Shown here: one piece after another, positions 8,268 to 42,529 of the stretch
Layout: each line of letters starts with the position of its first letter
Numbering within the stretch: position 1 is the first letter of the stretch
From: Candidatus Aenigmatarchaeota archaeon
GTDB taxonomy: Archaea; Aenigmatarchaeota; Aenigmatarchaeia; PWEA01; JAGHBM01
Reading direction: 5' to 3'
Assembly: GCA_021162085.1 (NCBI GenBank)
Contig: JAGGZI010000014.1
Coordinates: 1 to 44,281, forward strand
DNA length: 44,281 nt
Program-made: the position numbers and the translations under genes
Notes under the pieces: model-generated
Told to the model about the DNA's origin: nothing
Databases searched by the model: none
Seen by the model: only the letters and a program-made list of their open reading frames with translations

Positions 8268-8470
8268 TGGTGCCTGGGGTGGGTCAACCATTTCCCCAGA
8301 AAACGCTTTGCGTCTTCAAGTTTTGGGAAGTACAGAGACCTTTTTTGAAAAAGGGATCTGTTTTCGAACCCACGACCTCTAGATTTCTCACCATATCATA
8401 ATCCTCTCAGACTCATCACTCATAACTTTTGTTATGAGTCTAGCGCTCTAACCAACTGAGCTACCCAGGC
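8268..8470 (-). tRNA. tRNA-Met(CAT), elongator type, 2 introns (37/38: 8385-8432; T-loop ~59/60: 8285-8362)
   Basis: Spliced GCCTGGGTAGCTCAGTTGGTTAGAGCGCTAGACTCATA/ATCTAGAGGTCGTGGGTTCGAA/ACCCACCCCAGGCACCA; BHB helix CUCA/UGAG at the anticodon intron. Confidence 0.88.
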
Positions 8471-8533
8471 ATCTGAGATTCTAATTAGAGTTTCTTTTCA
8501 TACAACACTTTTCTTTGTGAAAGAAAAGGTTGT

Positions 8534-8796
8534 TGGTGGACCCGGGGAGATAAGGGAAACTTGAAAAGTTTCCAAGTTCTTTCCCTTGAGGCTTTCTTTT
8601 GAAGAAAGGCTCATTTGAACTCCCGACCTCTACGTAGCCCTTTTCCGCATACGCACAGAAGCGTTAACGGAAAATTTATCAGCGTAGCGCTCTAATTACC
8701 CACACTTTTCTTTTTCTCACAAACTTGACTGAAGTTTCTTTTCCCACAGTCTTTTCTTTGTGAAAGAAAAGCTGTTCCAAGCTGAGCTACGGGTCC
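8534..8796 (-). tRNA. tRNA-Ile(GAT), 3 introns (D-loop: 8696-8776; 37/38: 8636-8676; 59/60: 8551-8613)
   Basis: Spliced GGACCCGTAGCTCAGCTTGG/TTAGAGCGCTACGCTGATA/ACGTAGAGGTCGGGAGTTCAAA/TCTCCCCGGGTCCACCA forms a complete cloverleaf. Confidence 0.88.
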
Positions 8797-8949
8797 ATTG
8801 TAAATTAATTTTTATGCAATCTATAAAAAAGTTTCCCTTCCATTCAAGGCAATGTATACTCAAGACCTGAGAAAGAAATAAGGATAAAAATCGATGCCTT
8901 ACTACACACCGACATTTAAAAACAAAAAATTTTGGTGGACTTGTCGGGA

Positions 8950-9100
8950 CTCTCTCGAACCTGCAGGGGGCAAGCCCCCTTCAGTTTTACGGTATTCCTG
9001 ATATCTTCCCTTCCTTTTAAAATTGGCAAACTTTCAGTTTGCCCAAAATTGTTTCTTTGGGAAATACAAAAACCTTTCTTTCAAAAGAAAGGGATTTGTC
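8950..9100 (-). repeat. T-loop intron of tRNA-Ala, near-identical to the tRNA-Arg T-loop intron (42244-42397)
   Basis: About 100 consecutive identical nt from ttcagttttacggtattcc to aaaacctttcttt. Confidence 0.95.
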
Positions 9101-9133
9101 TTTGAACCCGAGACCTCCGCCGCTCTCAGACCA

Positions 9134-9287
9134 TTCACCAAGCCAGTTTCCGTTGACGTCTTGAGATTTTATCTCAAGTATTTGGAACATTGAGTTCCAA
9201 AACTTTACGCCGAGTAAAGGGTCATCCAAGTTTTCTGACTTCACCAAGCCAGTTTCCGTTGACGCTTTACGCCGAGTAAAGGGTCAT
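9134..9287. repeat. 48-bp direct repeat inside the tRNA-Ala anticodon intron (9240-9287 intact; 9134-9225 interrupted by a 44-bp insert at 9159-9202)
   Basis: ttcaccaagccagtttccgttgacg|ctttacgccgagtaaagggtcat is present twice. Confidence 0.95.
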
Positions 9288-9393
9288 GCGAAGGCGGCGC
9301 TCTTCCAACTGAGCTACAAGCCCATAATTAATTTTTCCTATCAATAATAGTTTTCTTTCGTACAACTCTTTCTTTTTCTAAAAGAAAGGTTGT

Positions 9394-9662
9394 TGGTGGG
9401 CCCGCCGAGATCTCCACGATGACGTACACTTCGTGCACGTCAAGCTATCTTTGAATTCCCGACACCCTTTCTTTTTTTCACAGTCTTTATCAAAGTTTTC
9501 TTTGACCGTAGACGACTTTCTTTTGTGAAAAGAAAGGAGTCTCTCGGGTCGCCAGCACCCCAAGCTGAAATGCTAGACCACTCCAGGGGACACCTACGGT
9601 TTCCCCTTAGGGTAACCTCTTCCCTTTCTAGAGCGCTAAGGGCTTAGCTACACCACGGGCCC
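9394..9662 (-). tRNA. tRNA-Pro(GGG), 3 non-canonical introns (D-loop: ~9581-9646; 53/54: 9456-9542; 59/60: 9411-9449)
   Basis: Spliced GGGCCCGTGGTGTAGC/TGGTCTAGCATTTCAGCTTGGGGTGCTGGCGACCCGAG/TTCAAA/TCTCGGCGGGCCCACCA; BHB helices CCCG/CGGG and UUCA/UGGA. Confidence 0.85.
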
Positions 9663-9747
9663 ATGATTAAATTTATGATATTTTTCTAAATATATTGATA
9701 TAGAAACATTTTTAAATCAATTCGCACTATTTTTATTAGGTGAAAAA

Positions 9748-10410
9748 ATGGCAATGGGAGCTTTAACAACGATAGGAGCAAACCTTTGGTATTCGTTCCT
9801 GGACTTTCTCCCGAACCTAATAGGAGCAATAATCTTACTAATAGTGGGCTACATAGTAGGAAAAATCAGTGGAATAGTGGTCAGAGAGATTCTAATAAGA
9901 GTTGGTGTAGACAAGTATCTCCAAAAGGAAGAACATATTAAATTCAAGACAAGTACAGTGTTCGATGTGATAACAAGATGGTTCTTGTATATAGTATTCA
10001 TCAATGCAGCGATAGAAGTACTTGGTATATCATCCCTAGTGGATGTAATGCATACAATAATATACTTCATACCAGGAGTAGTTGGAGCAGCAATAATAAT
10101 AATTGCAGCATACGGAGTTGGACTGTACATAAAGGAAGAAATACTATCATCAAAAACAATATACTCTGATATAGTAGGGAAGACCATATTCTTCTTAATA
10201 GTGTATCTTGGAGTTGCAGTGGCACTACCGTTGGTTGGAATTAATCCAACTATAGTAAACGACATACTCTTAGTGATAATAGGTTCGCTTGGACTAGGAC
10301 TAGCAATAGCACTTGGACTTGGATTAAAGGATGTCATAAGGGACATGGCAAAGGATTACGCAACTGAGTTCAGGGCGAAGAGAAAGAGGATGAATAGAAG
10401 AAGGAAGTGA
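9748..10410 (+). CDS. TM_helix-repeat membrane protein (CmpX/MscS-transmembrane-like)
   Basis: FLPNLIGAIILLIVG and FIPGVVGAAIII repeats, C-terminal AIALGLGLKD. Confidence 0.8.
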   Translation: MAMGALTTIGANLWYSFLDFLPNLIGAIILLIVGYIVGKISGIVVREILIRVGVDKYLQKEEHIKFKTSTVFDVITRWFLYIVFINAAIEVLGISSLVDVMHTIIYFIPGVVGAAIIIIAAYGVGLYIKEEILSSKTIYSDIVGKTIFFLIVYLGVAVALPLVGINPTIVNDILLVIIGSLGLGLAIALGLGLKDVIRDMAKDYATEFRAKRKRMNRRRK

Positions 10411-10500
10411 GAATTCTTTTTCCCTTTTTTTAATTTTTATTTCAATTAGAATTAAATATATAAACTATTTTATTGTTTAATAAAATTAAGATGTGATTTT

Positions 10501-12894
10501 ATGTTACCTAAGAAATATGATCCAAAGTCTATTGAAGACAAATGGAAAAAAATGTGGGAAGAGATGGGAATATATAAATTTAACCCCGATTCTGATAAAC
10601 CCGTATTCAGCATAGATACACCGCCAAGATATGCTTCTGGATACCTTCATATGGGTCACGCCAAGAACTACATAGAGTTTGAAATAATTGCAAGGTTCAT
10701 GAGAATGATTGGATATAATGTGTTCCTTCCAAATGGTTATGATGATAATGGACTTCCAACAGAAAAATACGTTGAAGAAAAACTGGGAATGAACAAAAAG
10801 GATGTTGATAGGAAAACTTTCATAGACAAATGTAAATGGGCCGCAGAAAGATTGGAAGAAAGAATGACAAAGACGTTCAAAGATATAGGATTCTCATGTG
10901 ACTGGTCTACGCTGTACAGAACCATAAGTGACTATGCTGTGAAGATGGCTCAAATGTCATTCATAGAGCTTTATAAAAAAGGAGAGATATACAGAAAGGA
11001 GGAACCAACTCTATGGTGTCCACACCATCAAACGGCACTCGCCCAGGCAGAGGTTGTGGACCTACCAAGGAAAACAAAACTAAATTACATATTATTTGAA
11101 TTGGAGGATGGAAAGAAAATAGAGATAGCAACCACCAGACCCGAGCTACTACCATCCTGTGTTGGGATATTTGTTAATCCTGATGATGACAGGTATAAGG
11201 ATCTTGTCGGGAAAAAAGCTATTGTACCCATATTCGGCCAGAAGGTCCCAATAATGGCTGATAAAAAAGTTGACAAAGAATTTGGTTCTGGAATAGTCAT
11301 GATTTGTACATTCGGAGACACTACAGATATAGAGTGGTGGAGGGAGTACAACCTTCCCATGAAGATATCAATAAATAAGGACGGTACCATGAACGAACTT
11401 GCAGGAAAGTATGAGGGACTAAAAATAGAAGATGCAAAGAAAAAAATAATAGAAGACCTAAAAGAATCTGGTTTACTAATAAAACAAGAAGACTTGGAAC
11501 AAACTGTTGGATGTTGCTGGAGATGCGAAACTCCAATAGAATTCATACCAACAAAGCAGTGGTTCATAAAAACCTTGGAACATAAGGATAAAATGATTGA
11601 ACTTGGTAGAAAGATAAATTGGAGACCAGAATATTACAGAAAACGATACGAGGACTGGGTGAGAAACCTCAAGTGGGACTGGTGTATATCAAGGCAAAGA
11701 TACTTCGGTGTGCCTTTCCCATTGTGGTACCGAAAAGATACCGGTGAGGTAGTTCTTGCCAAGGAAGAGGACCTTCCAGTCGATCCAAGAATCCAGAGAT
11801 GCCCATATGACAATGGTGATTCAGAGTGCATACCGGAAATGGATGTTATGGATACGTGGATGACTTCATCACTCACCCCACAAATAGTATCCAAGTGGAA
11901 AATTGATGATAAATTCTTTAATAAAATATTTCCAATGAGCCTTAGGCCTCAAGCACATGACATAATAAGGACATGGGCATTTTATACCATCCTCAAATCT
12001 TATCTTCATAATAATTCAATACCGTGGAAAGACATAATGATATCTGGATACGTTTATGTTGATAAGGGACTTGCCATGAGTAGCAGTAAGGGAATAGGTG
12101 ATGACCCTGAAAAAATAGTTGAGAGAGACGGGGCAGATGCCCTTAGATATTGGACAACTGAGGCAAGCCTTGGAGAAGACCTCATATACAGGGAAAAGGA
12201 TATAATAAGAGGTAAAAAAATTCTCATAAAATTATGGAATGCGTCAAGATTCGTGGAAATGCATCTTAAGGACTACAAACCAAAGGAAGTGAAGCTCAGA
12301 GTAACTGATAAGTGGATACTGAATGAAATGTACAAGGCTGCTGAAGAAAGTAAGGAAGCATTTAAAAATTATAATCCTAACAAAGCCCGTAAGGTCATAG
12401 AAATTTTCTTCAAAAATATCTTCTGTGATTTCTATCTTGAGATGGTGAAGCACCGACTGTATAACGATGTTGAAAAAGAATCAGCTCAATATACGCTTTA
12501 CAACGGCCTCTTGGGAATACTCAAAATGTACGCACCTATAATTCCCTTCATAACGGAAGAGATTTATCAGAATATGTTCAAAGAAAACGAAAAAGATAAA
12601 TCCATTCACACATCAAGGTGGCCAGAGACAGGAGAGATAGACGAAGAAGTAATTGAAATAGGCAGACTTGGTGTTTCCATAATCACTTATTTAAGGCAGC
12701 ACAAAACAAAAAATAATCTTCCATTAAATCAAGAATTAAATGAGATTGTAATAGAATGTGACAAGGAAACTGAGAAGAAGATAAAGCTCATAGAAGATGA
12801 CATAAAATGGACGATGAAGATTAAAGAAATAAAATTTGAAAAAACAAAGAATGGAATAGGAATTGGTTCTCTGAAGATAGAGGTTAGAGAATGA
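10501..12894 (+). CDS. valS: Valine--tRNA ligase (archaeal type)
   Basis: FSIDTPP..SGYLHMGH, ATTRPELL, DWCISRQRYFG, LRPQAHDIIRTWAFYT. Confidence 0.96.
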   Translation: MLPKKYDPKSIEDKWKKMWEEMGIYKFNPDSDKPVFSIDTPPRYASGYLHMGHAKNYIEFEIIARFMRMIGYNVFLPNGYDDNGLPTEKYVEEKLGMNKKDVDRKTFIDKCKWAAERLEERMTKTFKDIGFSCDWSTLYRTISDYAVKMAQMSFIELYKKGEIYRKEEPTLWCPHHQTALAQAEVVDLPRKTKLNYILFELEDGKKIEIATTRPELLPSCVGIFVNPDDDRYKDLVGKKAIVPIFGQKVPIMADKKVDKEFGSGIVMICTFGDTTDIEWWREYNLPMKISINKDGTMNELAGKYEGLKIEDAKKKIIEDLKESGLLIKQEDLEQTVGCCWRCETPIEFIPTKQWFIKTLEHKDKMIELGRKINWRPEYYRKRYEDWVRNLKWDWCISRQRYFGVPFPLWYRKDTGEVVLAKEEDLPVDPRIQRCPYDNGDSECIPEMDVMDTWMTSSLTPQIVSKWKIDDKFFNKIFPMSLRPQAHDIIRTWAFYTILKSYLHNNSIPWKDIMISGYVYVDKGLAMSSSKGIGDDPEKIVERDGADALRYWTTEASLGEDLIYREKDIIRGKKILIKLWNASRFVEMHLKDYKPKEVKLRVTDKWILNEMYKAAEESKEAFKNYNPNKARKVIEIFFKNIFCDFYLEMVKHRLYNDVEKESAQYTLYNGLLGILKMYAPIIPFITEEIYQNMFKENEKDKSIHTSRWPETGEIDEEVIEIGRLGVSIITYLRQHKTKNNLPLNQELNEIVIECDKETEKKIKLIEDDIKWTMKIKEIKFEKTKNGIGIGSLKIEVRE

Positions 12895-13439
12895 TAATTG
12901 AAAAGGTTAGAGAGTTCGTCACCAAGTCCTGTGAGGATGATGAAGTAAAGCATCTCGAACGAACATTATACTGGATTAAAGAGTTAAAAAGTTGTGCCAA
13001 TGAAGCACTAAAAATAGCCGCCTTAACTCATGACATTGACAGATGTTTAAAGAATGAAGGATGTGCGGATGACTTTAAAAAAGTAAGACACTCTCCAAAC
13101 TCAAAATACTACATGGAACATCAGAAAAAATCCGCAAGAATAGTCTCAAATTTTTTAGAAAACATTAATGCCGATGAAAACTTAATTAAAGAAGTGACAT
13201 TCCTAATAGAACATCATGAATCTGGTGGAACTCCTGAAGCTGATGTACTAAAAGATGCAGATAGCTTGAGCTTCTTCGAGAACAATGCATATTCGATCCT
13301 TGAAAAGTTTGCTAAATTAGATAAAGAAACTGTGAAAGAGAAGTTTGACTTCATGTTCAATAGAATATCGTCTGAGAAAGCCAAGAATATAGCAAAGCCC
13401 ATGTATGAAAAATTAATTAAGAAGTTGGAAGAAATTTAG
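12891..13439 (+). CDS. HD-domain protein (DUF4202-like)
   Basis: H...AALTHDIDR...H...HHE...LKDADSLSFFE. Confidence 0.75.
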   Translation: MIIEKVREFVTKSCEDDEVKHLERTLYWIKELKSCANEALKIAALTHDIDRCLKNEGCADDFKKVRHSPNSKYYMEHQKKSARIVSNFLENINADENLIKEVTFLIEHHESGGTPEADVLKDADSLSFFENNAYSILEKFAKLDKETVKEKFDFMFNRISSEKAKNIAKPMYEKLIKKLEEI

Positions 13440-13476
13440 TAATCTTTTTTAATTTAATTATTACTTTTCTATTAAG

Positions 13477-14691
13477 GTGTTAACTATGGAAGAAAAGAAA
13501 TACAAACTTAAAAAAATCGTGGACGAGCTTAGAGAGAAGAGCGGAAGACATACAGAATTAATTAGTCTTTACATTCCTCAGGGATTTAATCTTAACGAGA
13601 TAAGCAACCTTATATCGCAGGAAATATCACTCACACAGAACGTGAAGAGCAAGACTGTGAGAAAAAACGTTATCTCCGCCTTAACGAAAATACAACAATA
13701 TTTAAAACATTACAGACAAACACCACCAAACGGTCTTGTGATTTTTTGTGGAAATGTCTCAGAGAAGGAAGGTGAGACTGACATAAAGATATGGGCTCTT
13801 GAGCCACCGGAGCCGATAAAGATGAAACTATACTGGTGCGATCAAAAATTTGAATTGGGCCCATTGGAAGAAATGATGAAGGAGAAAGATGTTTATGGAC
13901 TCATAACCCTTGATAAAAGTGATGCGACTCTTGGGATACTAAGAGGGAAAAAAATAAACATAATCAAGAGGCTTCATTCAATAGTTCCTGGTAAAACGAG
14001 AGCAGGTGGCCAGAGTTCTGCAAGGTTTCAAAGAGTTAGAGCAGGACTTCTTAATGACTTCTTAAAAGAGATTGGAGAGAACTTCAAAAAAGTTTTTTCT
14101 GAAGAAGATATAAAAGGGATAATCGTAGGTGGCCCCGGACCAATAAAAGAAAAATTTGTTAATGAGAACTACATACCAGAAAATTTAAAGAAAAAAATAA
14201 TTGGAATAAAAGATATTGGATACAGTGACGAATATGGACTTGAGGAATTATTAAACAGGTCACAAGACCTTTTAAAAGAGGCTGAAGTGGCAAAAGAGAA
14301 AGAATTGTGTGAAAAATTCTTTGACGAGCTGAAGAGAGATACGGGCAAAGCAACATATGGATTAGAAGATGTAAAGAAAGCAATAGAAATGGGGGCTGTC
14401 GAAACTGTCCTTATCTCAGAAGGACTTGAAATTGAAGAAGTTGAATACGAATGCTCATGTGGTTATAGAGAAAAGAAGTTCGTGAAAACTAATGAGAAGG
14501 AAAATCAAAAATGTCCTAAATGTGGTGATACCATGAAAATAATTGGAGAGGCCGATATAGTTGATGTACTCGAGGATATGGCAAAGGAAACAGGTGCTAA
14601 AATTGAAATAATATCAAGAGATACATCAGAAGGAGAAAGACTGTACCTGATGGGAGGAATTGGAGCAATACTGAGATTTCCTATAGAGTAG
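13477..14691 (+). CDS. prf1: Peptide chain release factor aRF1
   Basis: GRHTELISLYIP, NVKS (NIKS-like), YWCD, GGQSSARF, Zn-ribbon insert; start may be ATG 13486. Confidence 0.96.
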   Translation: MLTMEEKKYKLKKIVDELREKSGRHTELISLYIPQGFNLNEISNLISQEISLTQNVKSKTVRKNVISALTKIQQYLKHYRQTPPNGLVIFCGNVSEKEGETDIKIWALEPPEPIKMKLYWCDQKFELGPLEEMMKEKDVYGLITLDKSDATLGILRGKKINIIKRLHSIVPGKTRAGGQSSARFQRVRAGLLNDFLKEIGENFKKVFSEEDIKGIIVGGPGPIKEKFVNENYIPENLKKKIIGIKDIGYSDEYGLEELLNRSQDLLKEAEVAKEKELCEKFFDELKRDTGKATYGLEDVKKAIEMGAVETVLISEGLEIEEVEYECSCGYREKKFVKTNEKENQKCPKCGDTMKIIGEADIVDVLEDMAKETGAKIEIISRDTSEGERLYLMGGIGAILRFPIE

Positions 14692-14709
14692 TATGATTAC
14701 TACCTTTCT

Positions 14710-15183: not shown

Positions 15184-15218
15184 TATAACACCTCTTCAAA
15201 TTATTATGTATTTCTTCC

Positions 15219-25086: not shown

Positions 25087-25408
25087 TGGTGCGGAGGGCC
25101 GGATTCTCACACGACTCACAGGAACCATAGATTCCAGTTCTCCCTCACTCTTGACCACTCCTTCAAAATTGTTAGGAAAACTCTTTTCGAGTTTTCCAAG
25201 TTCTTTCCTTTGATGCTTTCATATTTTGGTTGGGTTGCCCGGACTGGTCCAGACTATGGAACCCAACCTATATTACGAAAGGCTCATTCGAACCGACGAA
25301 CCCACTAAGGGACCAGATCTTGAGTATCACCTATCATCTGAGTATCAAAACTCAAGACTGAAGCTGGCGCCTTTGGTCCACTTAGATTGACCACTTGGCT
25401 ACCTCCGC
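25087..25408 (-). tRNA. tRNA-Leu(CAA), 3 non-canonical introns (D-loop: 25373-25386; 30/31: 25326-25363; 59/60: 25104-25286)
   Basis: Spliced GCGGAGGTAGCCAAGTGGTCAA/AGGCGCCAG/ACTCAAGATCTGGTCCCTTAGTGGGTTCGTCGGTTCGAA/TCCGGCCCTCCGCACCA; long variable arm; BHB helices GGUC/GACC, CGCC/GGUG, UUCG/UGAG. Confidence 0.88.
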
Positions 25409-25990: not shown

Positions 25991-26228
25991 TGGTGCGCCA
26001 GCCGGGACTTCCACCCTACGGAGGGACACCAAGGTTTCCCTCCTTATGGGTATATTCTCCCTTCCTTTTAAAATTGGCAAAAGCGAAGCTTTTGCAAGTT
26101 CTTTCCTATTGCCCTTTCTTCTGAAGAAAGGCAATTTTGAACCCGGGTCTCGAGCTGTCTCCACTCCAACTCATTTGACTGAGTAAATTGCTTGGGAAGC
26201 TCGGGTCCTACCACTAGACTACTGGCGC
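25991..26228 (-). tRNA. tRNA-Gly(CCC), 2 introns (37/38: 26157-26192; 59/60: 26008-26135)
   Basis: Spliced GCGCCAGTAGTCTAGTGGTAGGACCCGAGCTTCCCA/AGCTCGAGACCCGGGTTCAAA/TCCCGGCTGGCGCACCA; BHB helices UUCC/GGAG and UUCA/UGGA. Confidence 0.92.
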
Positions 26229-28891: not shown

Positions 28892-29130
28892 TGGAGCCCC
28901 GGGCCGGACTCTCACCCTACGGAGAGACAAAACGATGGACTTAGGCAGAGCCTAAGTCAGTTTGTCGTTTCCCTCCTTATGGGAATATCCTCCCTTCCTT
29001 TAAAAAATATAGGAAAACTCTTCGAGTTTTCCAAGTTCTTTCCCTTGAGGCTTTCTTCTGAAGAAAGGCTCATTTGAACCGGCGATCTTCCGCTTACGAG
29101 GCGGACGCATTACCACTATGCTACCGAGGC
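28892..29130 (-). tRNA. tRNA-Thr(CGT), 1 long T-loop intron (59/60: 28909-29072)
   Basis: Spliced GCCTCGGTAGCATAGTGGTAATGCGTCCGCCTCGTAAGCGGAAGATCGCCGGTTCAAA/TCCGGCCCGGGGCTCCA; BHB helix UUCA/UGAG. Confidence 0.93.
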
Positions 29131-34855: not shown

Positions 34856-35054
34856 ATGATTTTAAAGGAAGAAAATCAACTATTTTTTAGTTGTAACCAA
34901 TACTTTTTAATGTTTAATTGTTCCAAAAGCGATTTAAGGTGATTTTATAAAAAAATAAGCCATTTCCCTCCCTTTTAATTGAACGATTTAAATACCATAA
35001 AAAATGCATCGTAATTCTTAAAATATTAATACTGATGTATGACATTTATAATTC

Positions 35055-36528: not shown

Positions 36529-36543
36529 GTGACTAGCAAGAAA

Positions 36544-37302
36544 TCACCATAAATACCTGCTCACCAAATCATACACGTTCTCCTTGTCTACCAATCCAAG
36601 TAATGTTATATCATAAGCGTCCTTTGTTATCCTTAGTTCCCTAAGTAGTTTCTGTACCTCATCACTCCAGAATCCATCATCCTCTATGTGAGATACAACC
36701 TTTGCCCTTATATCATCAACTACCTTTCTTCCTTTGGCTGGTTCCTGATATATTTTTTTCTTCATGGTCGATAATCTGTTCCTGAGATACTCTTTATCGT
36801 TTTTACAGTTATCTAAAGACCTTTCTAGTTTTCCAATCACTATATCACTTATTGACTCTACGTTTATATCATATTTTTCGACTGAATTGTCCAGAATATC
36901 ATTTATCCTGTTTCTCTGAGATTCGTACTTTTTTTCAGTGAAGTGAGGTATGTGTATAGAAAATCCTCCTCTATCATCCTCAAGCTTTATTTCAAAGCAG
37001 GTTCTCTTTGAATTGAAGGCAATCGTGTAATCATCTGGAATCTCTGATGTAATTTTTTTAGATATGTAATCCTCGATGACACGAAAATCCGATTTTCTTA
37101 CCCTGTTCTTAGTTATCACATCTAAGTCTGTTGTACCCCTTAAATATCTTGGTCCAAGCTTTTCGTTTGCCCATATCTGAGAAGGTATCCCTCCAACACT
37201 TGAATAATCCCCCACCAACTTCTCCATTCTTGACTCATTAAATCCCTTCAATATCTCTACAGATTCCTTAACAATTCTATCATTTACTGTGTACCCGAAC
37301 AT
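36544..37302 (-). CDS. Hypothetical protein with nucleotidyltransferase-like N-terminal motif
   Basis: VGG...YLRGTTDLDV, later DIVIGKL and KDAYDI. Confidence 0.6.
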   Translation of the reverse strand: MFGYTVNDRIVKESVEILKGFNESRMEKLVGDYSSVGGIPSQIWANEKLGPRYLRGTTDLDVITKNRVRKSDFRVIEDYISKKITSEIPDDYTIAFNSKRTCFEIKLEDDRGGFSIHIPHFTEKKYESQRNRINDILDNSVEKYDINVESISDIVIGKLERSLDNCKNDKEYLRNRLSTMKKKIYQEPAKGRKVVDDIRAKVVSHIEDDGFWSDEVQKLLRELRITKDAYDITLLGLVDKENVYDLVSRYLW

Positions 37303-37355
37303 ATAACCATGTAATATATGGGAATTATAGTATTTAAATTTTCACTTATAAGTAG

Positions 37356-37700
37356 TTACTTCCAAAGAGGCAAGGAACCCGTGATTTTATCTATGTCTTT
37401 TTCCTTTGCTGGCCCAATCCCAAGGCACGTTATCGTCCCACTTGGAAGTTCGGTTCTTCCCGCATCACTTATGAGCACATGTGGAAGTTTCATCTTCTCT
37501 GCCTTCTTTTTCAAATCCAACAACCCTTTCTTACCATTAACACTTAGAACAACTTTTTTCTCTCCCTCAAGCCTCCATATGCCTCTCACCAGCTTATTAG
37601 ACTTTCTCCATGAGCCAAGCGATGCATGTGCAACCTGGGCAGCAAGTTTTCCTGGACTCAAATTCAAATCTTTTCTCACAACTATGACCTGTTTGTACAA
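37356..37700 (-). CDS. pth2: Peptidyl-tRNA hydrolase Pth2
   Basis: KQVIVVRKDL..SPGKLAAQVAHA, DAGRTEL..GTITCLGIGP. Confidence 0.95.
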   Translation of the reverse strand: MYKQVIVVRKDLNLSPGKLAAQVAHASLGSWRKSNKLVRGIWRLEGEKKVVLSVNGKKGLLDLKKKAEKMKLPHVLISDAGRTELPSGTITCLGIGPAKEKDIDKITGSLPLWK

Positions 37701-37715
37701 TTTACTCCACCTACT

Positions 37716-37810
37716 TAATTAAAGTTTTCTTTTCTAAAGTCTTTTCTTTTGATTTGCGACTAAAGTCGCAAATTTTGGGATGCAATCCCAAAATGAAAAG
37801 AAAAGCTTTA
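37716..37810 (-). repeat. Intergenic copy of the tRNA-intron hairpin module with a nested twin-hairpin insert
   Basis: taattaaagttttcttttc-taaagtcttttcttttg[insert 37752-37793]tgaaaagaaaagcttta; matches 8482-8533, 8734-8775 and 9350-9393. Confidence 0.8.
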
Positions 37811-38599
37811 CGGAACCATCATTCCAACCTTCAGCATATCCCTCGTGCCGAGGGCAAGACCCAAAATTAATATTGCTATCTTTAGCCAATTTCTGAATCC
37901 CTCATCCTCCACGTACTTATCTATCAAGTAAAGCACTGGCCAAACTATGAAAATTTTTAATGGAAACATTATCCATGGTCCAGTGAATCCAATTAGGAAC
38001 GTTGGAAGAACGTGCTGTTCTGCATAACCAAAGAATGTTAGCGCAACAAACGTGGAGCTCCCATCAAATAAATGTGAAACCAGTATTGAATAGTTCATCC
38101 TTGAAAGGTATTTTGGAAATTTAAGATGAATTGGAGCAAAAACTGCTGCCCACATACCCACAAGACCTAATATCATCAAAACACCTCTCCAATTTCTCAA
38201 TCCAAATAAAAAAACCTCGTAAAGGTTGAAAGCGCACAGGATGGTTCCAGTTATCAACATAGTCTTCCAATAATCGAACTTGAATTTCTTTTGAATGAGC
38301 GCTGAAATAATCAAAATAGCAAGTGTCACAAAAAACAGAGTTACGTATATACCAGGAGAGACAAAGAAATACCCGTGATAAAATCCTGCATCTTCCAGAG
38401 CCCTCATTATGCCTCCAAGAAATATGAATGGAACCAATGAAAGGATAAAATTCTTATCAACCTTCATTTTCATTTTTTTAAGTATGTACTTGTAAACAAG
38501 AAATACTGCTACAACAAAAATCAGTGCATAAACTATGGTGGCCGGGAGAGTGTAGTAATGCCCCATTGGCTGCAAAAAATATTTCTCTATGAAACCCAT
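37808..38599 (-). CDS. DUF63 family membrane protein
   Basis: Y...TIVYA, GGIMRALEDAG, VSPGIY, HLFDGSST, Y.EQHVLP, LGLA.GTRD. Confidence 0.88.
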   Translation of the reverse strand: MGFIEKYFLQPMGHYYTLPATIVYALIFVVAVFLVYKYILKKMKMKVDKNFILSLVPFIFLGGIMRALEDAGFYHGYFFVSPGIYVTLFFVTLAILIISALIQKKFKFDYWKTMLITGTILCAFNLYEVFLFGLRNWRGVLMILGLVGMWAAVFAPIHLKFPKYLSRMNYSILVSHLFDGSSTFVALTFFGYAEQHVLPTFLIGFTGPWIMFPLKIFIVWPVLYLIDKYVEDEGFRNWLKIAILILGLALGTRDMLKVGMMVP

Positions 38600-39183
38600 C
38601 AGTCACCACCAAAGAAGGGAAGTGGAACCAGATTGTTTTCTTTTGTTTTTTCTTTTTCCTCTTCGTCCTTTATTTCTATTTCCTTCGGTTCTTTCTTTTT
38701 TTTGCGCGGCTTCCTAACCCTAAAACTACTCATCATCAGTACAGATGAAACTATGAGCCAGCCAGAAACTATGTACACATCAAAGAAGTTGAAGATGTAT
38801 ATAAATGGTATTATGAATCCGTTTACAAGAGTTGGCATCCCACCAATCTTTGAAATCCTGACGGCACTAATCAACATGAATATCAAACCAAGTGTTAAAA
38901 CTACAAGTTGCATCAGAACGTTCAGATTGGAGAAATAAATTACAATGAATAGTGCCGATGCAATTCCAAAGGGTGTCATTCTCCCCAATGAAATTACAAC
39001 CTTGAATATATCCGTATCTATCGTGAGCAATCTCACCAACACGTGATTTACGATATCAATCGATGCTGCCAGTATTAAAATGTAAGCCCCATAATCAAAC
39101 AACCCCCTTATGAAAAAAAACATGGAAAGAAATCCAAGCGATATGTTTAAAAGTGACAATACCTCTACAACCCTTCCTTTCAT
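38599..39183 (-). CDS. Degenerate CDP-alcohol phosphatidyltransferase-like (PssA-like) membrane protein
   Basis: PssA-like layout (LSLLNISLG, AVRISK, GMPT) but the catalytic Asp motif is eroded. Confidence 0.6.
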   Translation of the reverse strand: MKGRVVEVLSLLNISLGFLSMFFFIRGLFDYGAYILILAASIDIVNHVLVRLLTIDTDIFKVVISLGRMTPFGIASALFIVIYFSNLNVLMQLVVLTLGLIFMLISAVRISKIGGMPTLVNGFIIPFIYIFNFFDVYIVSGWLIVSSVLMMSSFRVRKPRKKKKEPKEIEIKDEEEKEKTKENNLVPLPFFGGD

Positions 39184-40026
39184 CTAATCACCAAATATCC
39201 TCTTGAATGCTTCTATTGTATCTTCCGGTTTATATTTAAGATATTCTTCGGAATCCTTTATATTAAATTCTCTATCTTTAAATGTTGTTCTTATGAATCC
39301 AGATAACTGCGGTATAAACTTTCCAATGCCTATGAGTATTTTGGGAATGTAAATCTGATTTATTCCAAGGTCATTCTTCAGGACATTGGATATGTCATTT
39401 ATCTTAACAGGCTTCCTGTCTGCAATATTGTAAAACCCATTTCTTTTACACTTAATTGAATTTAAAAAAGCCCTTATGAGAGGCTCCTTGAAAGTTGGGT
39501 GGAATTTGAAATCTATTCCAAGTTTGGGAAATATCCTGTATTTCTTCAGTGACCTGAATCTCTCTTCATCGTACACAAAAGACGGCCTTATGGTTATAAC
39601 ATTAATTTTGTTGGAGTATCTTTTAACAACTTCCTCTGCCATCCTTTTTGACAACCCGTATATCGTCATATCTTCGTATATAGCACCAACCGAACTCACA
39701 AAAATTATCTTCTTCACGGAATTCTCTATACCGGCCCTCAGTACGTTCTCAGTCCCATCAACATTAACCTCAAAGAATTTTTCCTTGCTAACTCCAAATC
39801 CCTTTCTCTCCGTTATTCCAGCAAGATGATATATGTAGTCAACATCCTTTGTGGCGTTCAACATGCTCTTGTAATCTGTGATGTTTCCCTTAACAAACTC
39901 AAAGTCTTTTGATTTCTTACTCTTCCTTGTGAGAACCTTGACGTTGTATTTATCTCTAAGTCTATCAACCAAATCAGATCCTATGTACCCTGTTCCACCT
40001 GTAACAAGAATCATAGATATCTCCAC
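39184..40026 (-). CDS. NAD-dependent epimerase/dehydratase
   Basis: LVTGGTGYIG, HLAG, NVDGT, SS, YGLSK. Confidence 0.9.
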   Translation of the reverse strand: MEISMILVTGGTGYIGSDLVDRLRDKYNVKVLTRKSKKSKDFEFVKGNITDYKSMLNATKDVDYIYHLAGITERKGFGVSKEKFFEVNVDGTENVLRAGIENSVKKIIFVSSVGAIYEDMTIYGLSKRMAEEVVKRYSNKINVITIRPSFVYDEERFRSLKKYRIFPKLGIDFKFHPTFKEPLIRAFLNSIKCKRNGFYNIADRKPVKINDISNVLKNDLGINQIYIPKILIGIGKFIPQLSGFIRTTFKDREFNIKDSEEYLKYKPEDTIEAFKRIFGD

Positions 40027-40559
40027 GCATGATAAAATCTTTCAAAAAATGAATATATACCTATTAAAAGTACTATAAGTACTGCGTAATAAACTTGGGA
40101 AAATAAAAGCCCAAAAAACATGACTGACAATCGGACCGCCCTCATACTGAGTTTTTCACCAACCTTGCTCTTTGTCCCAGACTCGATAACCGAACTCTCA
40201 TAACTTGCCATGTACACAAAGAAAATTGTCGTGAAGGCAATCACGGCACTCACATATCCACCAAGAAATGTTGAGAATATTAGTACAAAATCTGAAATCC
40301 TGTCACCAACCCTATCGAAGAACATCCCAAACTTGCTCGTTGTCTTATGAAACTTTGCAACTGTTCCGTCCAGCAGGTCAAGGAAACCTGAAATGAAAAG
40401 GAACAAGGCACCAAGGACTATATTTGATAAAAAAATTTCATAGCCACATAAAAACATAAAAATTATTGCAAGAAGTGTTATTATGTTCGGATTTACATTC
40501 AATCTCTTTGCAACGGGAACCAGAAACGATTCCACGTAGTCCTTTGAATCAGCAATCAT
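40011..40559 (-). CDS. CDP-alcohol phosphatidyltransferase
   Basis: PNIIT; DLLDGTVAK...FGMFFDRVGDR signature. Confidence 0.92.
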   Translation of the reverse strand: MIADSKDYVESFLVPVAKRLNVNPNIITLLAIIFMFLCGYEIFLSNIVLGALFLFISGFLDLLDGTVAKFHKTTSKFGMFFDRVGDRISDFVLIFSTFLGGYVSAVIAFTTIFFVYMASYESSVIESGTKSKVGEKLSMRAVRLSVMFFGLLFSQVYYAVLIVLLIGIYSFFERFYHAWRYL

Positions 40560-40660
40560 AATATAAGTATAAATTATTTATTTAAAATATTTTCAACCAA
40601 AGTGTGTACTTCTTCCACAGAGCCTGCGCCTTTTTTGAATCAAGTATTATGTTGTGGCCA

Positions 40661-41344
40661 TCACAACCTTCTTGTTATTGACCTCAAAACCTTTTTAGTT
40701 GCCAACCTCATCTTACTATAAAATCCAAATGGTTTTCCCTTTATGATAACCTTCCCTTTCTTTATTGCCTTTAAAACTTCATCTACGTCCGAGCCACAGT
40801 TAATTATGTTGTATATGGTGCCTACGTCCTTCCAGTAGTGTGCATCAGAACCTCCCGTCATAGGATAATTCAACTCCCTGGCAACGTCGTACGCCTTCTT
40901 GTTTTCCTTCCATCTAATTCCACCATTCAATACTTCAATTGCATCAAACCTGTATTTTCTTATGGCATCCCCAACTCCAGATGTTCTGGGAAATCCAACA
41001 TATGGGTGTACTGCTATTGCTATTCCACCAAGCTCATGAATTTTATCTATGGTCTCCTGAACAGATAATCCTTTCCTGACATTCTCCTTTATTCCAAGTG
41101 CGAGTATGTGCCCGTCTGCAGAGCTGACCTCAGAACCAGGAATTAAAACGAAGTTCTTTATTTTCTTTGAGTACTTTAGTCCCTCAATGGAACCTTTCAC
41201 TGAATCGTGATCGGTTATTGCAAGTCCATTCAAGCCCTTTGACATTACCATCTTTATCATTTCTTTGGGGGTTCCGAATGCCTCATCACCCCATATCCTG
41301 TGTCTTGAATAAACAGAATGCGTATGTATATCTGCGTATATCAT
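40661..41344 (-). CDS. PHP domain protein
   Basis: DIHTHS, ITDHD, GSE, GH, HPY, GGSDAH; ATG 41344 preferred. Confidence 0.9.
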   Translation of the reverse strand: MIYADIHTHSVYSRHRIWGDEAFGTPKEMIKMVMSKGLNGLAITDHDSVKGSIEGLKYSKKIKNFVLIPGSEVSSADGHILALGIKENVRKGLSVQETIDKIHELGGIAIAVHPYVGFPRTSGVGDAIRKYRFDAIEVLNGGIRWKENKKAYDVARELNYPMTGGSDAHYWKDVGTIYNIINCGSDVDEVLKAIKKGKVIIKGKPFGFYSKMRLATKKVLRSITRRL

Positions 41345-41348
41345 TGTA

Positions 41349-41888
41349 TCACCATGGAACTTTCTTTGCACCGATCTTATGACCTATTATGGAAGCTATC
41401 ACATGAATTATTGGAGTTATTATAGTTATCAAAACGAAGGACAGAGCCGTTAATTTCATTACAAGAGAAGCAAAGAAGAACGCACCGAACACGAAGTCCA
41501 ATTGATCAAGAAGCGGTGCTGGCTCACCGCTCTCTATATCTACCCTCCTCTTTATGAATGAACCTACAAGGTCCCCAACCATTGCCCCAAATGAAATTAA
41601 AAATACTGAGAGTAAAGACAGTCGAGGCACCGTGAGACCTTCCTTCAGCAAAGCTACACTCACGTAAGGATAAAGAGCCATCTCAATCAAGCCGACAACT
41701 ACCCCAACGAATATTGCAAATACGAAGCCTTCCCAAGTCTTTCCTTTCCCAAATATGTCTCTGCCATCTGAGAATTTTTTTCCAAAGTCCATTCTTCTCT
41801 TCCCATGTGCCAACGGTGCAAAACCATTTGCTGCATAGGCAGGAATAATTATCCATAATCCTATTATTAACTCCGGTAAAAAGCTCAT
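41349..41888 (-). CDS. carS: CDP-archaeol synthase
   Basis: PAYAANG, DGR.IFG.GKTWEG, GDLVGSFIKRR, PLLDQLDF, K..PW; ATG 41888 preferred. Confidence 0.93.
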   Translation of the reverse strand: MSFLPELIIGLWIIIPAYAANGFAPLAHGKRRMDFGKKFSDGRDIFGKGKTWEGFVFAIFVGVVVGLIEMALYPYVSVALLKEGLTVPRLSLLSVFLISFGAMVGDLVGSFIKRRVDIESGEPAPLLDQLDFVFGAFFFASLVMKLTALSFVLITIITPIIHVIASIIGHKIGAKKVPW

Positions 41889-41921
41889 GAACTTTTTTAA
41901 ATAAAACAACAATATATAACT

Positions 41922-42221
41922 ATGTTTTCAGGAACTCCCGGAGAAATTCTTGTGGCCATTGGACTGATTGTAGGTATGCCAGGAGTTCCTGACTTCGGAA
42001 TCCAGCTGACACTAGCCATAATCATCGGTATGCTTCTTCCGGAAAGCGTCATAAAACCAATTAATGTATTTCTGATAGAAATTCTCCCTCCAATGAACTC
42101 ATTTGAATACAAGTTGAGGAAAATCCCAAGAATTAAGACGATAATACCAAGAATAATAGCAGGTTATTTATTCACATTTGTAATAGGACTCGTGCTGATA
42201 GCAATTGGATTGTTGATTTAA
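41922..42221 (+). CDS. Small hypothetical membrane protein
   Basis: 99-aa hydrophobic ORF filling the gap between carS and tRNA-Arg. Confidence 0.65.
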   Translation: MFSGTPGEILVAIGLIVGMPGVPDFGIQLTLAIIIGMLLPESVIKPINVFLIEILPPMNSFEYKLRKIPRIKTIIPRIIAGYLFTFVIGLVLIAIGLLI

Positions 42222-42226
42222 TAATA

Positions 42227-42529
42227 TGGTGCCCCTGCCGGGACTTTCACGAACCCGCAAGGAACCTACGGTTCCTTTCAGTTTTACGGTATTCCTGATA
42301 TCTTCCCTTCCTTTTAAAATTGGCAAACTTTCAGTTTGCCCAAAATTGTTTCTTTGGGAAATACAAAAACCTTTCTTTTGAAAGAAAGGGATTTGTCTTT
42401 GAACCCGGGTCCCAGCCTTTCTACTTTGCGCTGAGTAAAGGGCCACTTCTACAAGCCAGTTTGATGAATCTTTATGCCGAGTAAAGATTCTCCGCAGGGC
42501 TGTATCCTATCCAGCTAGACTACAGGGGC
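42227..42529 (-). tRNA. tRNA-Arg(GCG), 2 composite introns (37/38: 42419-42491; 59/60: 42244-42397)
   Basis: Spliced GCCCCTGTAGTCTAGCTGGATAGGATACAGCCCTGCGG/AGGCTGGGACCCGGGTTCAAA/TCCCGGCAGGGGCACCA; BHB helices CUGC/GUAG and UUCA/UGAA. Confidence 0.9.
42244..42397 (-). repeat. T-loop intron of tRNA-Arg, near-identical to the tRNA-Ala T-loop intron (8950-9100)
   Basis: Direct alignment; differences are confined to hairpin tips and the splice-junction end. Confidence 0.95.

What the first reader, a model, noticed from the sequence alone, without database searches (positions are those of the whole stretch)
8268..42529. Intron invasion of tRNA genes: all 8 tRNAs have a T-loop (59/60) intron, about 18 introns in total
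Seen in sequence: each tRNA folds only after removing 1-3 inserts, and every one is interrupted directly after TTC(A/G)AA, by 39 to 183 nt. In Thr, Gly, Arg, Leu and Pro the intron 3' end supplies a 4-nt strand (UGAG, UGGA or UGAA) that pairs with T-loop nt 54-57, followed by 2 nt. This is the BHB geometry of the canonical 37/38 intron transposed to the T-arm. Established: archaeal tRNA introns are cut by EndA at BHB motifs, and multiple non-canonical introns are known mainly from Thermoproteales, where they are mostly short. Inference: saturation of one non-canonical site with long, related, ORF-less introns points to an active intron-gain system targeting the conserved T-loop. Standard tRNA finders probably miss most of these genes.
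Basis: partly seen in the sequence, partly recalled or inferred. Interest (0 to 1): 0.93.

Follow-up and report, generated by a model that had tools for sequence, protein, structure and literature searches.

The report
Intron-saturated tRNA genes of a DPANN archaeon
Every transfer-RNA gene in this stretch of a tiny archaeal genome is broken up by one to three removable inserts, always including a long one in the same spot of the T-loop, which explains why standard software sees almost no tRNA genes in such organisms.

Summary
The window carries 8 tRNA genes, all on the minus strand and 203-391 nt long. ARAGORN finds none of them. After 18 inserts are removed by coordinates, 8 of 8 fold as canonical cloverleafs with encoded CCA. 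Each gene has an insert of 39-183 nt directly after TTCRAA, at position 59/60. Genome-wide, 38 of the 40 tRNA genes I found have this insert, and none is intron-free.

The bulge-helix-bulge (BHB) central helix is fully paired in 13 of 18 window introns and in 19 of 36 genomic T-loop introns, against 2% for control 4-mers. One alpha-type EndA with the Nanoarchaeum-like loop insertion is present, and so is RtcB. These are therefore most likely genuine EndA-spliced introns. No RNA data exist to show splicing.

The kind is known: ARMAN-2 has 59/60 and 53/54+59/60 introns, and the former is cleaved in vitro. New here are the near-saturation, the length, mosaic introns up to 98% identical between unrelated tRNAs, and gain, loss or replacement within one genus. 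Also new is a conserved module found in several DPANN lineages: a pyrimidine-purine hairpin followed by a mirror purine tract (61 mirror, 0 direct of 82). The module also sits in 3' trailers and 16S rRNA insertions. A dedicated intron-gain machine is not shown.

The parts
9394..9662 (-). tRNA-Pro(GGG) gene, 269 nt, 3 introns, encoded CCA; TTCAAA is a 6-nt micro-exon (9455-9450)
   Evidence: cloverleaf after splicing
9581..9645 (-). Pro D-loop intron, 65 nt
   Evidence: spliced alignment to the uninterrupted Pro(GGG) of G029; H helix 3 of 4; shortened in G001
9456..9542 (-). Pro 53/54 intron, 87 nt, carries the Y-R-D module
   Evidence: H helix CCCG/CGGG 4 of 4; module; about 24 nt in G001
9411..9449 (-). 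Pro 59/60 T-loop intron, 39 nt
   Evidence: H helix TTCA/TGGA 4 of 4; conserved in G001
9351..9389 (-). Y-R-D module in the 3' trailer directly after the CCA of tRNA-Pro
8933..9323 (-). tRNA-Ala(CGC) gene, 391 nt, 2 introns, G3:U70, encoded CCA
9123..9286 (-). Ala 37/38 intron, 164 nt, internally duplicated
   Evidence: H helix TTCG/TGAG 4 of 4; precisely absent from the G001 orthologue
8950..9100 (-). Ala 59/60 T-loop intron, 151 nt, with Y-R-D module
   Evidence: H helix 3 of 4; 98% identical over 121 nt to the Arg(GCG) T-loop intron
8534..8796 (-). tRNA-Ile(GAU) gene, 263 nt, 3 introns
8695..8775 (-). Ile D-loop intron, 81 nt, with Y-R-D module; boundaries uncertain by a few nt
   Evidence: H helix 1 of 4; near-identical in G001
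8636..8676 (-). Ile 37/38 intron, 41 nt
   Evidence: precisely absent from the G001 orthologue; H helix 2 of 4
8551..8613 (-). Ile 59/60 T-loop intron, 63 nt, short form with module and no 3' UGAR strand
   Evidence: H helix 0 of 4; replaced by an unrelated intron at the same site in G001
8491..8529 (-). Y-R-D module in the 3' trailer after tRNA-Ile
8268..8470 (-). tRNA-Met(CAU) gene, 203 nt, 2 introns
8385..8432 (-). Met 37/38 intron, 48 nt
   Evidence: H helix CTCA/TGAG 4 of 4
8285..8362 (-). Met 59/60 T-loop intron, 78 nt
   Evidence: H helix 3 of 4; replaced by another type in G001
25087..25408 (-). tRNA-Leu(CAA) gene, 322 nt, 3 introns
25373..25386 (-). Leu D-loop mini-intron, 14 nt
   Evidence: H helix GGTC/GACC 4 of 4
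25326..25363 (-). Leu anticodon-stem intron at 30/31, 38 nt
   Evidence: H helix CGCC/GGTG 4 of 4
25104..25286 (-). Leu 59/60 T-loop intron, 183 nt
   Evidence: H helix TTCG/TGAG 4 of 4
25991..26228 (-). tRNA-Gly(CCC) gene, 238 nt, 2 introns
26157..26192 (-). Gly 37/38 intron, 36 nt
   Evidence: H helix TTCC/GGAG 4 of 4
26008..26135 (-). Gly 59/60 T-loop intron, 128 nt, with module
   Evidence: H helix TTCA/TGGA 4 of 4; module
28892..29130 (-). tRNA-Thr(CGU) gene, 239 nt, 1 intron
28909..29072 (-). Thr 59/60 T-loop intron, 164 nt, with module
   Evidence: H helix TTCA/TGAG 4 of 4; module
42227..42529 (-). tRNA-Arg(GCG) gene, 303 nt, 2 introns
42419..42491 (-). Arg 37/38 intron, 73 nt, related to the Ala 37/38 intron but with its own 4-nt strand matched to the Arg anticodon loop
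   Evidence: H helix CTGC/GTAG 4 of 4; shared blocks read by eye
42244..42397 (-). Arg 59/60 T-loop intron, 154 nt, with module
   Evidence: H helix TTCA/TGAA 4 of 4; mosaic identity to four other T-loop introns

Best explanation
These are functional tRNA genes of a small-genome DPANN archaeon. Their precursors carry 1-3 protein-spliced (BHB-type) introns.

Inferred: the single alpha-type splicing endonuclease EndA, which bears the Nanoarchaeum-like 'L3' loop insertion, cuts at two 3-nt bulges that flank a 4-bp helix. RtcB then joins the exons.

At 59/60 the exon strand of that helix is T-loop nt 54-57 (UUCR), and nt 58-59 plus the first intron base form the 5' bulge. The intron supplies YGRR plus 2 nt at its 3' end. 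Because UUCR is the same in every tRNA, one intron sequence is splice-competent in any tRNA. That can explain how one modular family comes to occupy 38 of 40 genes.

Shown: the copies are mosaics of shared blocks and are gained, lost or swapped within a genus. Inferred: the most economical mechanism is ectopic recombination or gene conversion among resident copies, perhaps with occasional transposition.

Most long introns begin with a conserved module: a homopyrimidine/homopurine hairpin followed by a purine tract that mirrors the hairpin's purine strand. The base of the hairpin starts right after the 5' bulge and so can serve as the inner helix of the splice motif.
For: - Cloverleafs are restored in 8 of 8 genes.
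- 36 of 38 curated genes, plus 2 more found later, carry a 59/60 insert.
- No intron-free tRNA was found.
- In the four G000/G001 orthologue alignments the exon stretches are almost entirely matched (read by eye, not tallied per position; one C/T difference in the Ile acceptor stem that still pairs with G), while introns differ by indels, presence/absence or replacement.
- The H helix pairs 4 of 4 in 13 of 18 window introns and in 19 of 36 T-loop introns, against 2.05% in the control.
- Enforcing the BHB costs only 0-5.3 kcal/mol, and hairpin 1 starts 0-1 nt after the bulge in 14 of 17.
- The related 37/38 introns of Ala and Arg carry different 4-nt strands (TGAG versus GTAG), each matched to its own anticodon loop.
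- EndA aligns over its full length to M. jannaschii EndA and shares a 6-residue lysine-rich insertion with the N. equitans alpha subunit.
- RtcB is present at E 4e-176.
- ARMAN-2 59/60 introns were cleaved by its EndA in vitro (PMC3239211, passages).
- L3-bearing alpha4 enzymes go with more tRNA disruption in DPANN (PMC5829648, passages).
- T-loop introns are 94-100% identical over 45-144 nt between tRNAs of different identity, in a mosaic pattern.
Against: - There is no RNA evidence. No RNA run holds the sequence, so splicing, circular introns and the true cut sites are unobserved.
- 17 of 36 T-loop introns lack a fully paired H helix at the canonical register.
- All three introns of tRNA-Ile pair poorly (1, 2 and 0 of 4).
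- By my reading of the 3' ends printed, about 6 T-loop introns place YGGA 4 nt rather than 2 nt before nt 60.
- The inner helix is replaced by a multi-helix junction, which has not been tested for any EndA.
- Only one EndA gene was found, and alpha4 enzymes are classically strict. A beta subunit could sit in the missing 12% of the genome.
- The recombination mechanism is inferred from mosaicism alone.
Confidence: 0.8

Rival explanations
1. A dedicated, currently active intron-gain (transposition) system inserts copies de novo into the T-loop of tRNA genes, for example by reverse splicing of excised introns followed by copying into DNA.
For: - Introns are near-identical in unrelated tRNAs (98% over 121 nt).
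- Anticodon and D-loop introns differ in presence or absence within one genus.
- All 32 or so strong modules are sense to the tRNA, as RNA-mediated insertion would give.
- Intron transposition has been proposed for Thermoproteales (PMC4090602, passage).
Against: - No reverse transcriptase (PF00078) was found in the 87.5%-complete genome.
- In the comparison with G001, the T-loop site is always already occupied and the intron is replaced, never newly gained (4 of 4 orthologues).
- The same architecture at the same site in several DPANN lineages suggests old occupancy.
- Mosaic blocks fit recombination between copies.
Confidence: 0.3
2. A subset of the inserts is removed by a pathway other than EndA that recognises the conserved hairpin-plus-purine-tract module. 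The subset comprises inserts without a BHB, the 3' trailers and the rRNA insertions.
For: The module occurs only in segments expected to be discarded: T-loop, D-loop and 53/54 introns, five 3' trailers and 16S insertions. It is always in sense orientation. The Ile introns carry the module but lack the H helix.
Against: No candidate enzyme was identified. Many module-bearing introns also have a perfect BHB. Relaxed motifs are known EndA substrates (PMC3239211).
Confidence: 0.12
3. The 59/60 inserts stay in the mature tRNA as expansion segments. Nucleotides 59-60 bulge out of the T-loop fold (recalled structural knowledge, from no call), so they could tolerate an insertion.
For: The insertion point is structurally the most permissive of the T-loop (recalled). 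No RNA data exclude this reading.
Against: The enrichment of the exact BHB register (19 of 36 against 2%; 59 of 80 against 7 of 80 in other DPANN) has no reason to exist if the insert is kept. Inserts are swapped for unrelated sequences within a genus.
Confidence: 0.04
4. The loci are repeat-disrupted pseudo-tRNAs.
For: ARAGORN and Rfam do not recognise them. They are full of repeated sequence.
Against: No other tRNA set exists in the genome. 8 of 8 give perfect cloverleafs, including G3:U70 in Ala. Exons are conserved while introns diverge.
Confidence: 0.01

Closest known systems
T-loop introns of Candidatus Micrarchaeum acidiphilum ARMAN-2 (Fujishima et al. 2011, PMC3239211; passages read)
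   Same: Both are DPANN archaea. Both have an intron at 59/60. tRNA-Pro(GGG) carries two adjacent introns at 53/54 and 59/60 that leave a T-loop micro-exon, exactly as in the Pro(GGG) gene here. The ARMAN-2 59/60 substrate was cleaved in vitro by its EndA.
   Different: In ARMAN-2 these are single cases (56% of genes disrupted), and the tested intron is 13 nt. Here 38 of 40 genes carry one, of 14-196 nt, built from shared modules. The ARMAN-2 enzyme is the three-unit epsilon2 type; here a single alpha-type gene was found.
Multiple and non-canonical tRNA introns and 'intron transposition' in Thermoproteales (Fujishima et al. 2010, seen only as cited in PMC4090602)
   Same: Up to three introns per gene. 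Similar intron sequences sit in tRNAs of different identity. The BHB is the only requirement.
   Different: The lineage and the endonuclease type differ. In Thermoproteales the introns are spread over many positions, whereas here one site is nearly saturated. I saw no mention of a hairpin/mirror-tract module in the passages read.
Heavily interrupted tRNA genes of Asgard archaea (bioRxiv 10.64898/2026.10.13.758758; abstract and passages)
   Same: Most genes are interrupted. T-arm insertions are common and often have canonical motifs. Annotation software misses many. Gains are repeated.
   Different: A different superphylum; the terms DPANN, T-loop and Nanoarchaeota do not occur in that text. 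In the passages I read I saw no report of one site occupied in nearly all genes, nor of the module.
DPANN alpha4-type EndA with the L3 (Nanoarchaea/ARMAN-2) loop (Kaneta et al. 2018, PMC5829648; passages)
   Same: The EndA here is a single alpha-type protein. It has an insertion at the same place as in the N. equitans alpha subunit. The paper links such enzymes to more tRNA disruption and to incomplete predicted tRNA sets.
   Different: That paper predicts hidden disrupted genes but, in the passages I read, does not describe them. Its Figure 7 data and supplements were not visible to me.
Class II intrastrand triplex motifs (BoxC/TMECO) of bacteria (Holder et al. 2015, PMC4666352; passages)
   Same: The block order on one strand is the same: pyrimidine, then complementary purine, then a purine block that mirrors the second. 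In that paper such motifs are associated with genomic rearrangement.
   Different: The bacterial motif is G/C-rich with 3-nt loops and lies in intergenic DNA. The module here is A/T-rich with a single central C/G. Its second spacer is 3-18 nt. It sits inside transcribed introns, always in sense. Whether a triplex forms at all is untested, and the paper states that purine-motif triplexes do not form in RNA.

Membership tests
Archaeal BHB (EndA-spliced) tRNA intron | Removal restores a canonical cloverleaf tRNA | tested here: met
   8 of 8 genes, 18 introns removed by coordinates; cloverleafs drawn by ARAGORN
Archaeal BHB (EndA-spliced) tRNA intron | Two 3-nt bulges separated by a 4-bp helix, with each splice site after the second bulge nucleotide | tested here: inconclusive
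   The H helix pairs 4 of 4 in 13 of 18 window introns and 3 of 4 in 3 more. It is weak in the three Ile introns. Genome-wide, 19 of 36 T-loop introns pair 4 of 4 against 2.05% in the control. The inner helix is a multi-helix junction.
Archaeal BHB (EndA-spliced) tRNA intron | Splicing endonuclease and RNA ligase are encoded | tested here: met
   EndA: PF01974 at 97 bits, aligned to PDB 1a79 and 3iey_A. RtcB: 584 bits.
Archaeal BHB (EndA-spliced) tRNA intron | Spliced exon junctions or excised introns seen in RNA | not testable with these tools
   No RNA holder was listed.
Broad-specificity EndA (specific-loop bearing) | Loop insertion near the catalytic unit (L1, L2 or L3) | tested here: met
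   A 6-residue lysine-rich insertion relative to M. jannaschii, shared with the N. equitans alpha subunit. Its identity as 'L3' rests on the description in PMC5829648.
Broad-specificity EndA (specific-loop bearing) | Subunit composition (alpha4, (alpha-beta)2 or epsilon2) | tested here: inconclusive
   One gene of about 180-197 aa. The only other PF01974 hit (13 bits) lies in a 265-aa ORF that looks to me like an aldolase, judged by eye and not searched. The genome is 87.5% complete.
Group I / group II self-splicing or homing-endonuclease introns | Ribozyme core or intron-encoded ORF | tested here: not met
   No Rfam intron family matched, even at E<=10. The introns are at most 196 nt, too short for an ORF.
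Transposed tRNA introns (Thermoproteales type) | Closely similar intron sequences in tRNAs of different identity or position | tested here: met
   98.3% over 121 nt between Arg(GCG) and Ala(CGC). 17 of 36 T-loop introns fall in one similarity cluster. The module also occurs in D-loop and 53/54 introns.
Class II intrastrand triplex motif | Pyrimidine block, complementary purine block, then a purine block that mirrors the second, all on one strand | tested here: met
   61 of 82 asymmetric modules are exact mirrors, 0 are direct repeats and 21 are near-mirrors. Nine run-length classes covary. The permutation mean is 16.3 and the maximum 30 in 10,000.
Class II intrastrand triplex motif | A triple helix actually forms (DNA or RNA) | not testable with these tools
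   This needs CD, NMR or melting experiments. The outer stem and short linker before the third block may hinder fold-back (my reading).

The most novel reading that the evidence does not exclude
The hairpin-plus-mirror-tract module is a selected three-strand element found in several DPANN lineages (a class II purine-motif intrastrand triplex, or an equivalent protein-read structure). It marks the parts of stable RNA genes that are thrown away: tRNA introns, 3' trailers and 16S rRNA insertions. It could act on the displaced non-template DNA strand of these highly transcribed genes. There it would make them recombination-prone and drive the observed swapping and spread of introns. Alternatively it could act in the RNA as a self-contained fold that keeps long inserts from disturbing tRNA folding and presents the splice bulge.
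Probability: 0.3. Interest if true: 0.85.

Novelty: new variant of a known kind. Interest (0 to 1): 0.7.

Why it matters
It gives a concrete answer to why many DPANN genomes appear to lack tRNAs. The genes are there but are 45-80% intron by length, and here the standard finders ARAGORN and Rfam recovered at most 1 of 8 genes in the window and only 1-2 genome-wide. tRNA counts in such MAGs, and whatever is inferred from them, may therefore be systematically understated.

It shows a whole tRNA set that depends on cutting inside the T-loop by what looks like a single-subunit endonuclease. This is a direct test case for how the loop insertion widens substrate range.

It offers a simple rule for intron spread. 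The only splice-helix strand that is identical in all tRNAs is UUCR of the T-loop.

Finally, the strictly covarying mirror tract is an unexplained conserved nucleic-acid motif. It can be tested at the bench with short oligonucleotides.

Tried and rejected
- **RNA evidence.** No RNA holder was listed for window 8200-9700. Eight DNA runs from 5 studies were listed.
- **Contigs laid on the window.** I laid the contigs of 4 DNA runs. The region is shattered into short contigs. The joints have sides of 20-27 letters and probably come from other organisms' tRNA exons. One of them (9127 to 9286, with 21 other letters between) is close to the limits I assign to the Ala 37/38 intron (9123-9286). I drew no conclusion from it.
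- **Genome-wide anticodon table.** I tried to get one by brute-force deletion plus ARAGORN on 38,421 candidates. ARAGORN accepted many false parses. Only the 7 genes that needed no more than T-loop removal gave clean calls: Gly(UCC), Thr(CGU), Asp(GUC), Asn(GUU), Phe(GAA), Gly(GCC) and Cys(GCA). I therefore give no genome-wide intron total and no anticodon table.
- **Spliced alignment.** Alignment to 27 uninterrupted tRNAs of G029 gave only rough exon limits where no matching isoacceptor was available. I curated the window genes by hand.
- **Second EndA subunit.** The only other PF01974 hit (13 bits) is in an ORF that reads like an aldolase. I judged this by eye and ran no search.
- **C/D-box guide in the Met anticodon intron.** The box-like motifs are not kept in G001, so I dropped the idea.
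- **EndA generating the 3' end at the trailer module.** The 4-nt spacing after the acceptor stem would not leave CCA, so I dropped it.
- **'Option B' BHB.** In this reading each bulge lies 5' of its helix strand, which would cover the six YGGA+4 introns. I rejected it on geometry, from recalled knowledge.
- **Literature.** Searches listed no paper whose title or abstract start reports near-complete 59/60 occupancy or the module in DPANN; the listed papers were not read in full. The supplements of PMC3239211 and PMC5829648 (tRNA tables, intron-site figures) were not visible and may list more 59/60 cases.

Full report
**What is in the window.** ARAGORN finds no tRNA in the 44,281-base window. 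Rfam's tRNA model passes its gathering score once, at 29075-29130 on the minus strand, and gives one weaker partial hit at 8351-8463. I read the intergenic stretches and scanned for a 7-bp acceptor stem closed by N-CCA. This showed eight minus-strand genes of 203-391 nt.

I set the exon limits by hand. I was helped by a spliced alignment to uninterrupted tRNAs of a related genome, G029, and by orthologues in a same-genus genome, G001. A script cut out 18 inserts by coordinates. ARAGORN then drew 8 of 8 canonical cloverleafs: Pro(GGG), Ala(CGC, with G3:U70), Ile(GAU), Met(CAU), Leu(CAA), Gly(CCC), Thr(CGU) and Arg(GCG). All have encoded CCA.

**The T-loop site.** In all eight genes the 5' strand of the T-stem is followed by TTC(A/G)AA. 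Next comes an insert of 39, 151, 63, 78, 183, 128, 164 or 154 nt. Then come one nucleotide (nt 60) and the 3' strand of the T-stem. In tRNA-Pro the six T-loop bases form a micro-exon between a 53/54 intron and the 59/60 intron.

Position 59/60 is the sixth-to-seventh position of a 7-nt loop closed by a 5-bp stem. The expected splice motif then has three parts:
- nt 54-57 paired with intron positions n-5 to n-2;
- nt 58, 59 and the first intron base as one bulge;
- the last two intron bases and nt 60 as the other bulge.

It is 3 of 4 in Ala and Met and 0 of 4 in Ile. Over all 18 window introns it is 4 of 4 in 13, 3 of 4 in 3, and 2, 1 and 0 in the three Ile introns.

**The whole genome.** The window is an entire contig of a 789,653-base, 58-contig assembly that is 87.5% complete. 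ARAGORN finds one tRNA in all of it, and that call is a misparse of an interrupted gene. Infernal gives 13 hits at E<=1, all inside interrupted genes.

My scan gave 38 curated genes of 139-391 nt, all with encoded CCA.
- 34 show the direct 59/60 interruption.
- 2 have the micro-exon form.
- 2 have an intact T-arm.
- Two further genes turned up while I chased the repeat module, and both have a 59/60 intron. One is an Ile(UAU)-like gene split over the ends of contigs C51 and C16. The other is a class II gene on C39.

In total, 38 of 40 genes carry a 59/60 intron and no gene is intron-free. Of 36 T-loop introns, 19 pair 4 of 4 at the exact register and 9 pair 3 of 4. Of 2974 internal 4-mers of the same introns, 61 (2.05%) would pair. 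By my reading of the 3' ends printed, about six place YGGA four rather than two bases before nt 60. I could not fit these to a standard motif.

Forcing the motif into the fold costs 0-5.3 kcal/mol against the free minimum. The first hairpin starts 0-1 nt after the 5' bulge in 14 of 17 cases. The inner helix is therefore a junction of hairpins rather than one closing stem.

**The enzymes.** I found one EndA gene (97 bits to PF01974; a 197-aa ORF).
- It aligns end to end with the M. jannaschii homotetramer subunit.
- It shares a 6-residue lysine-rich insertion with the N. equitans alpha subunit, and M. jannaschii lacks this insertion.
- Kaneta et al. 2018 call this insertion L3. They report it in alpha4-type enzymes of several DPANN lineages, together with more tRNA disruption and incomplete predicted tRNA sets (PMC5829648, passages).
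- The only other weak hit is in an unrelated ORF.

RtcB is present, and so is RNase P RNA. No reverse transcriptase domain was found.

**Relatedness and turnover.** T-loop introns of tRNAs with different identities share 94-100% identity over 45-144 nt, in a mosaic pattern. The Arg(GCG) intron shares its first 121 nt (98%) with Ala(CGC). It shares its last 65-77 nt with two other genes on contig C26. Seventeen of 36 fall in one similarity cluster.

In G001 the Pro-Ala-Ile-Met cluster is syntenic. In the four alignments the exon stretches are almost entirely matched. I read this by eye and did not tally it per position. One C/T difference in the Ile acceptor stem still pairs with G. The introns differ as follows:
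- the Ala 164-nt and Ile 41-nt anticodon introns are precisely absent;
- Met has an extra D-loop intron;
- the Pro D-loop and 53/54 introns are much shorter;
- the T-loop introns of Ile and Met are replaced by an unrelated type at the same site.

The related 37/38 introns of Ala and Arg carry different 4-nt strands, each matched to its own anticodon loop. This is what selection for the splice helix predicts. It also shows why the T-loop site is special: its exon strand never varies.

**Distribution.** Rfam tRNA hits at E<=0.001 number 2 and 5 in the two genomes of this genus, 1-14 in the rest of the family, and 3-40 in the order and class. Disruption is therefore lineage-wide and extreme here.

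I sent an exact pattern for the T-loop followed by the conserved hairpin to the species-genome collection. It matched 82 stretches. They are labelled Micrarchaeota, Aenigmatarchaeota, Pacearchaeota, Woesearchaeota, Nanoarchaeota or 'uncultured archaeon', plus one 4-kb contig binned as Thermotogaceae. The records with introns nearest to ours are labelled Aenigmatarchaeota or uncultured archaeon.

In 59 of 80 distinct junctions a matching T-stem strand follows within 400 nt at the canonical register, against 7 of 80 after shuffling. Intron lengths there are 34-342 nt, with a median of 84. In an even sample of 301 genomes of the phylum, 25 (19 of 151 genera) hold the strict pattern. This genome has most, with 14, and G001 has 6. 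The reversed-pattern control gave 0.

**The module.** Most long introns begin with the same arrangement:
- a variable outer stem;
- a pyrimidine strand with T-runs of lengths a and b around one C;
- a short loop;
- the complementary purine strand;
- 3-18 nt later, a purine tract with A-runs of lengths a and b around one G.

That order is the mirror of the hairpin's purine strand, not a repeat of it. Among 82 distinct modules with a not equal to b, drawn from 46 sources, 61 are exact mirrors, 0 are direct repeats, and 21 are off by one or a few bases. Nine (a,b) classes covary. Shuffling the tracts gives a mean of 16.3 and at most 30 matches in 10,000 trials.

In this genome about 32 strong copies exist. 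All copies inside or beside tRNA genes are sense to the tRNA. They lie in T-loop, D-loop and 53/54 introns and in five 3' trailers right after CCA.

The module also sits in insertions of the 16S rRNA gene. That gene is 1741 nt against a 1478-position model. It has extra sequence after about model positions 346 and 636 in the part of the alignment shown.

The block order is that of a 'class II intrastrand triplex motif'. Such motifs are linked to genome rearrangement in bacteria. The same paper states that purine-motif triplexes do not form in RNA (PMC4666352, passages). I cannot tell whether a triplex forms, on DNA or on RNA. The covariation is solid, but its reading is open.

**Comparison and verdict.** The kind is known. 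ARMAN-2 has a 59/60 intron that its EndA cuts in vitro, and a Pro(GGG) gene with 53/54 plus 59/60 introns, as here (PMC3239211). Thermoproteales show multiple related introns (PMC4090602). Asgard tRNA genes are heavily interrupted, with many T-arm inserts (bioRxiv 2026).

Four things are new here as far as my searches show:
- near-complete occupancy of one non-canonical site by long, modular, mosaic introns;
- their replacement within a genus;
- the mirror-tract module found in several DPANN lineages;
- its presence in trailers and rRNA insertions.

I file it as a new variant of a known kind. Splicing itself remains inferred, because no RNA run holds the sequence.

Noticed in passing
G000 contig C4 about 8913-10653 (L129:614-2354): The 16S rRNA gene is 1741 nt against a 1478-position model. 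It has extra sequence after about model positions 346 (91 nt against 28) and 636 (48 against 1). A 52-nt insert lies near the conserved GAAAC/TTAAGGGAATTG stretch. Two of these inserts carry the same hairpin-plus-mirror-tract module as the tRNA introns.
   Followed up: partly
window 9351-9389 and 8491-8529 (minus strand); also after three tRNA genes on contigs C26 and C46: The module also sits in 3' trailers, starting 4-5 nt after the encoded CCA. It is always sense to the tRNA. How the 3' end is made is unclear.
   Followed up: partly
whole genome G000 compared with loci L047-L126: All 40 tRNA genes of this genome encode CCA. Only 10 of 80 T-loop-intron genes from other DPANN MAGs showed CCA at the expected place.
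   Followed up: no
G000 contig C4:15554-15939 (L034): The RNase P RNA match spans 386 nt against a 288-position model, so this gene may also carry insertions.
   Followed up: no
window 9123-9286 (minus strand): The 164-nt Ala anticodon intron contains an internal duplication of about 60 nt. It shares blocks with the Arg 37/38 intron (42419-42491) and with an intron on contig C16. This is a second intron family, distinct from the T-loop family.
   Followed up: partly
window 42244-42290 and 8950-8990 (minus strand), the 3' parts of the Arg and Ala T-loop introns: The last 20 nt or so of this intron subtype resemble the 5' half of a T-arm (GGGTTCG followed by the splice strand). The gene thus holds two T-arm-like 5' halves. 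This may be a trace of how the intron arose.
   Followed up: no
G000 contig C51:17508-19119: The EndA gene lies about 0.5 kb downstream of two interrupted tRNA genes on the same strand, with an ORF of about 190 aa between them.
   Followed up: no
window 8162-8194: There is a weak, sub-threshold Rfam hit to a CRISPR repeat family (20 bits against a gathering score of 39), inside or beside an ORF. It is probably chance.
   Followed up: no
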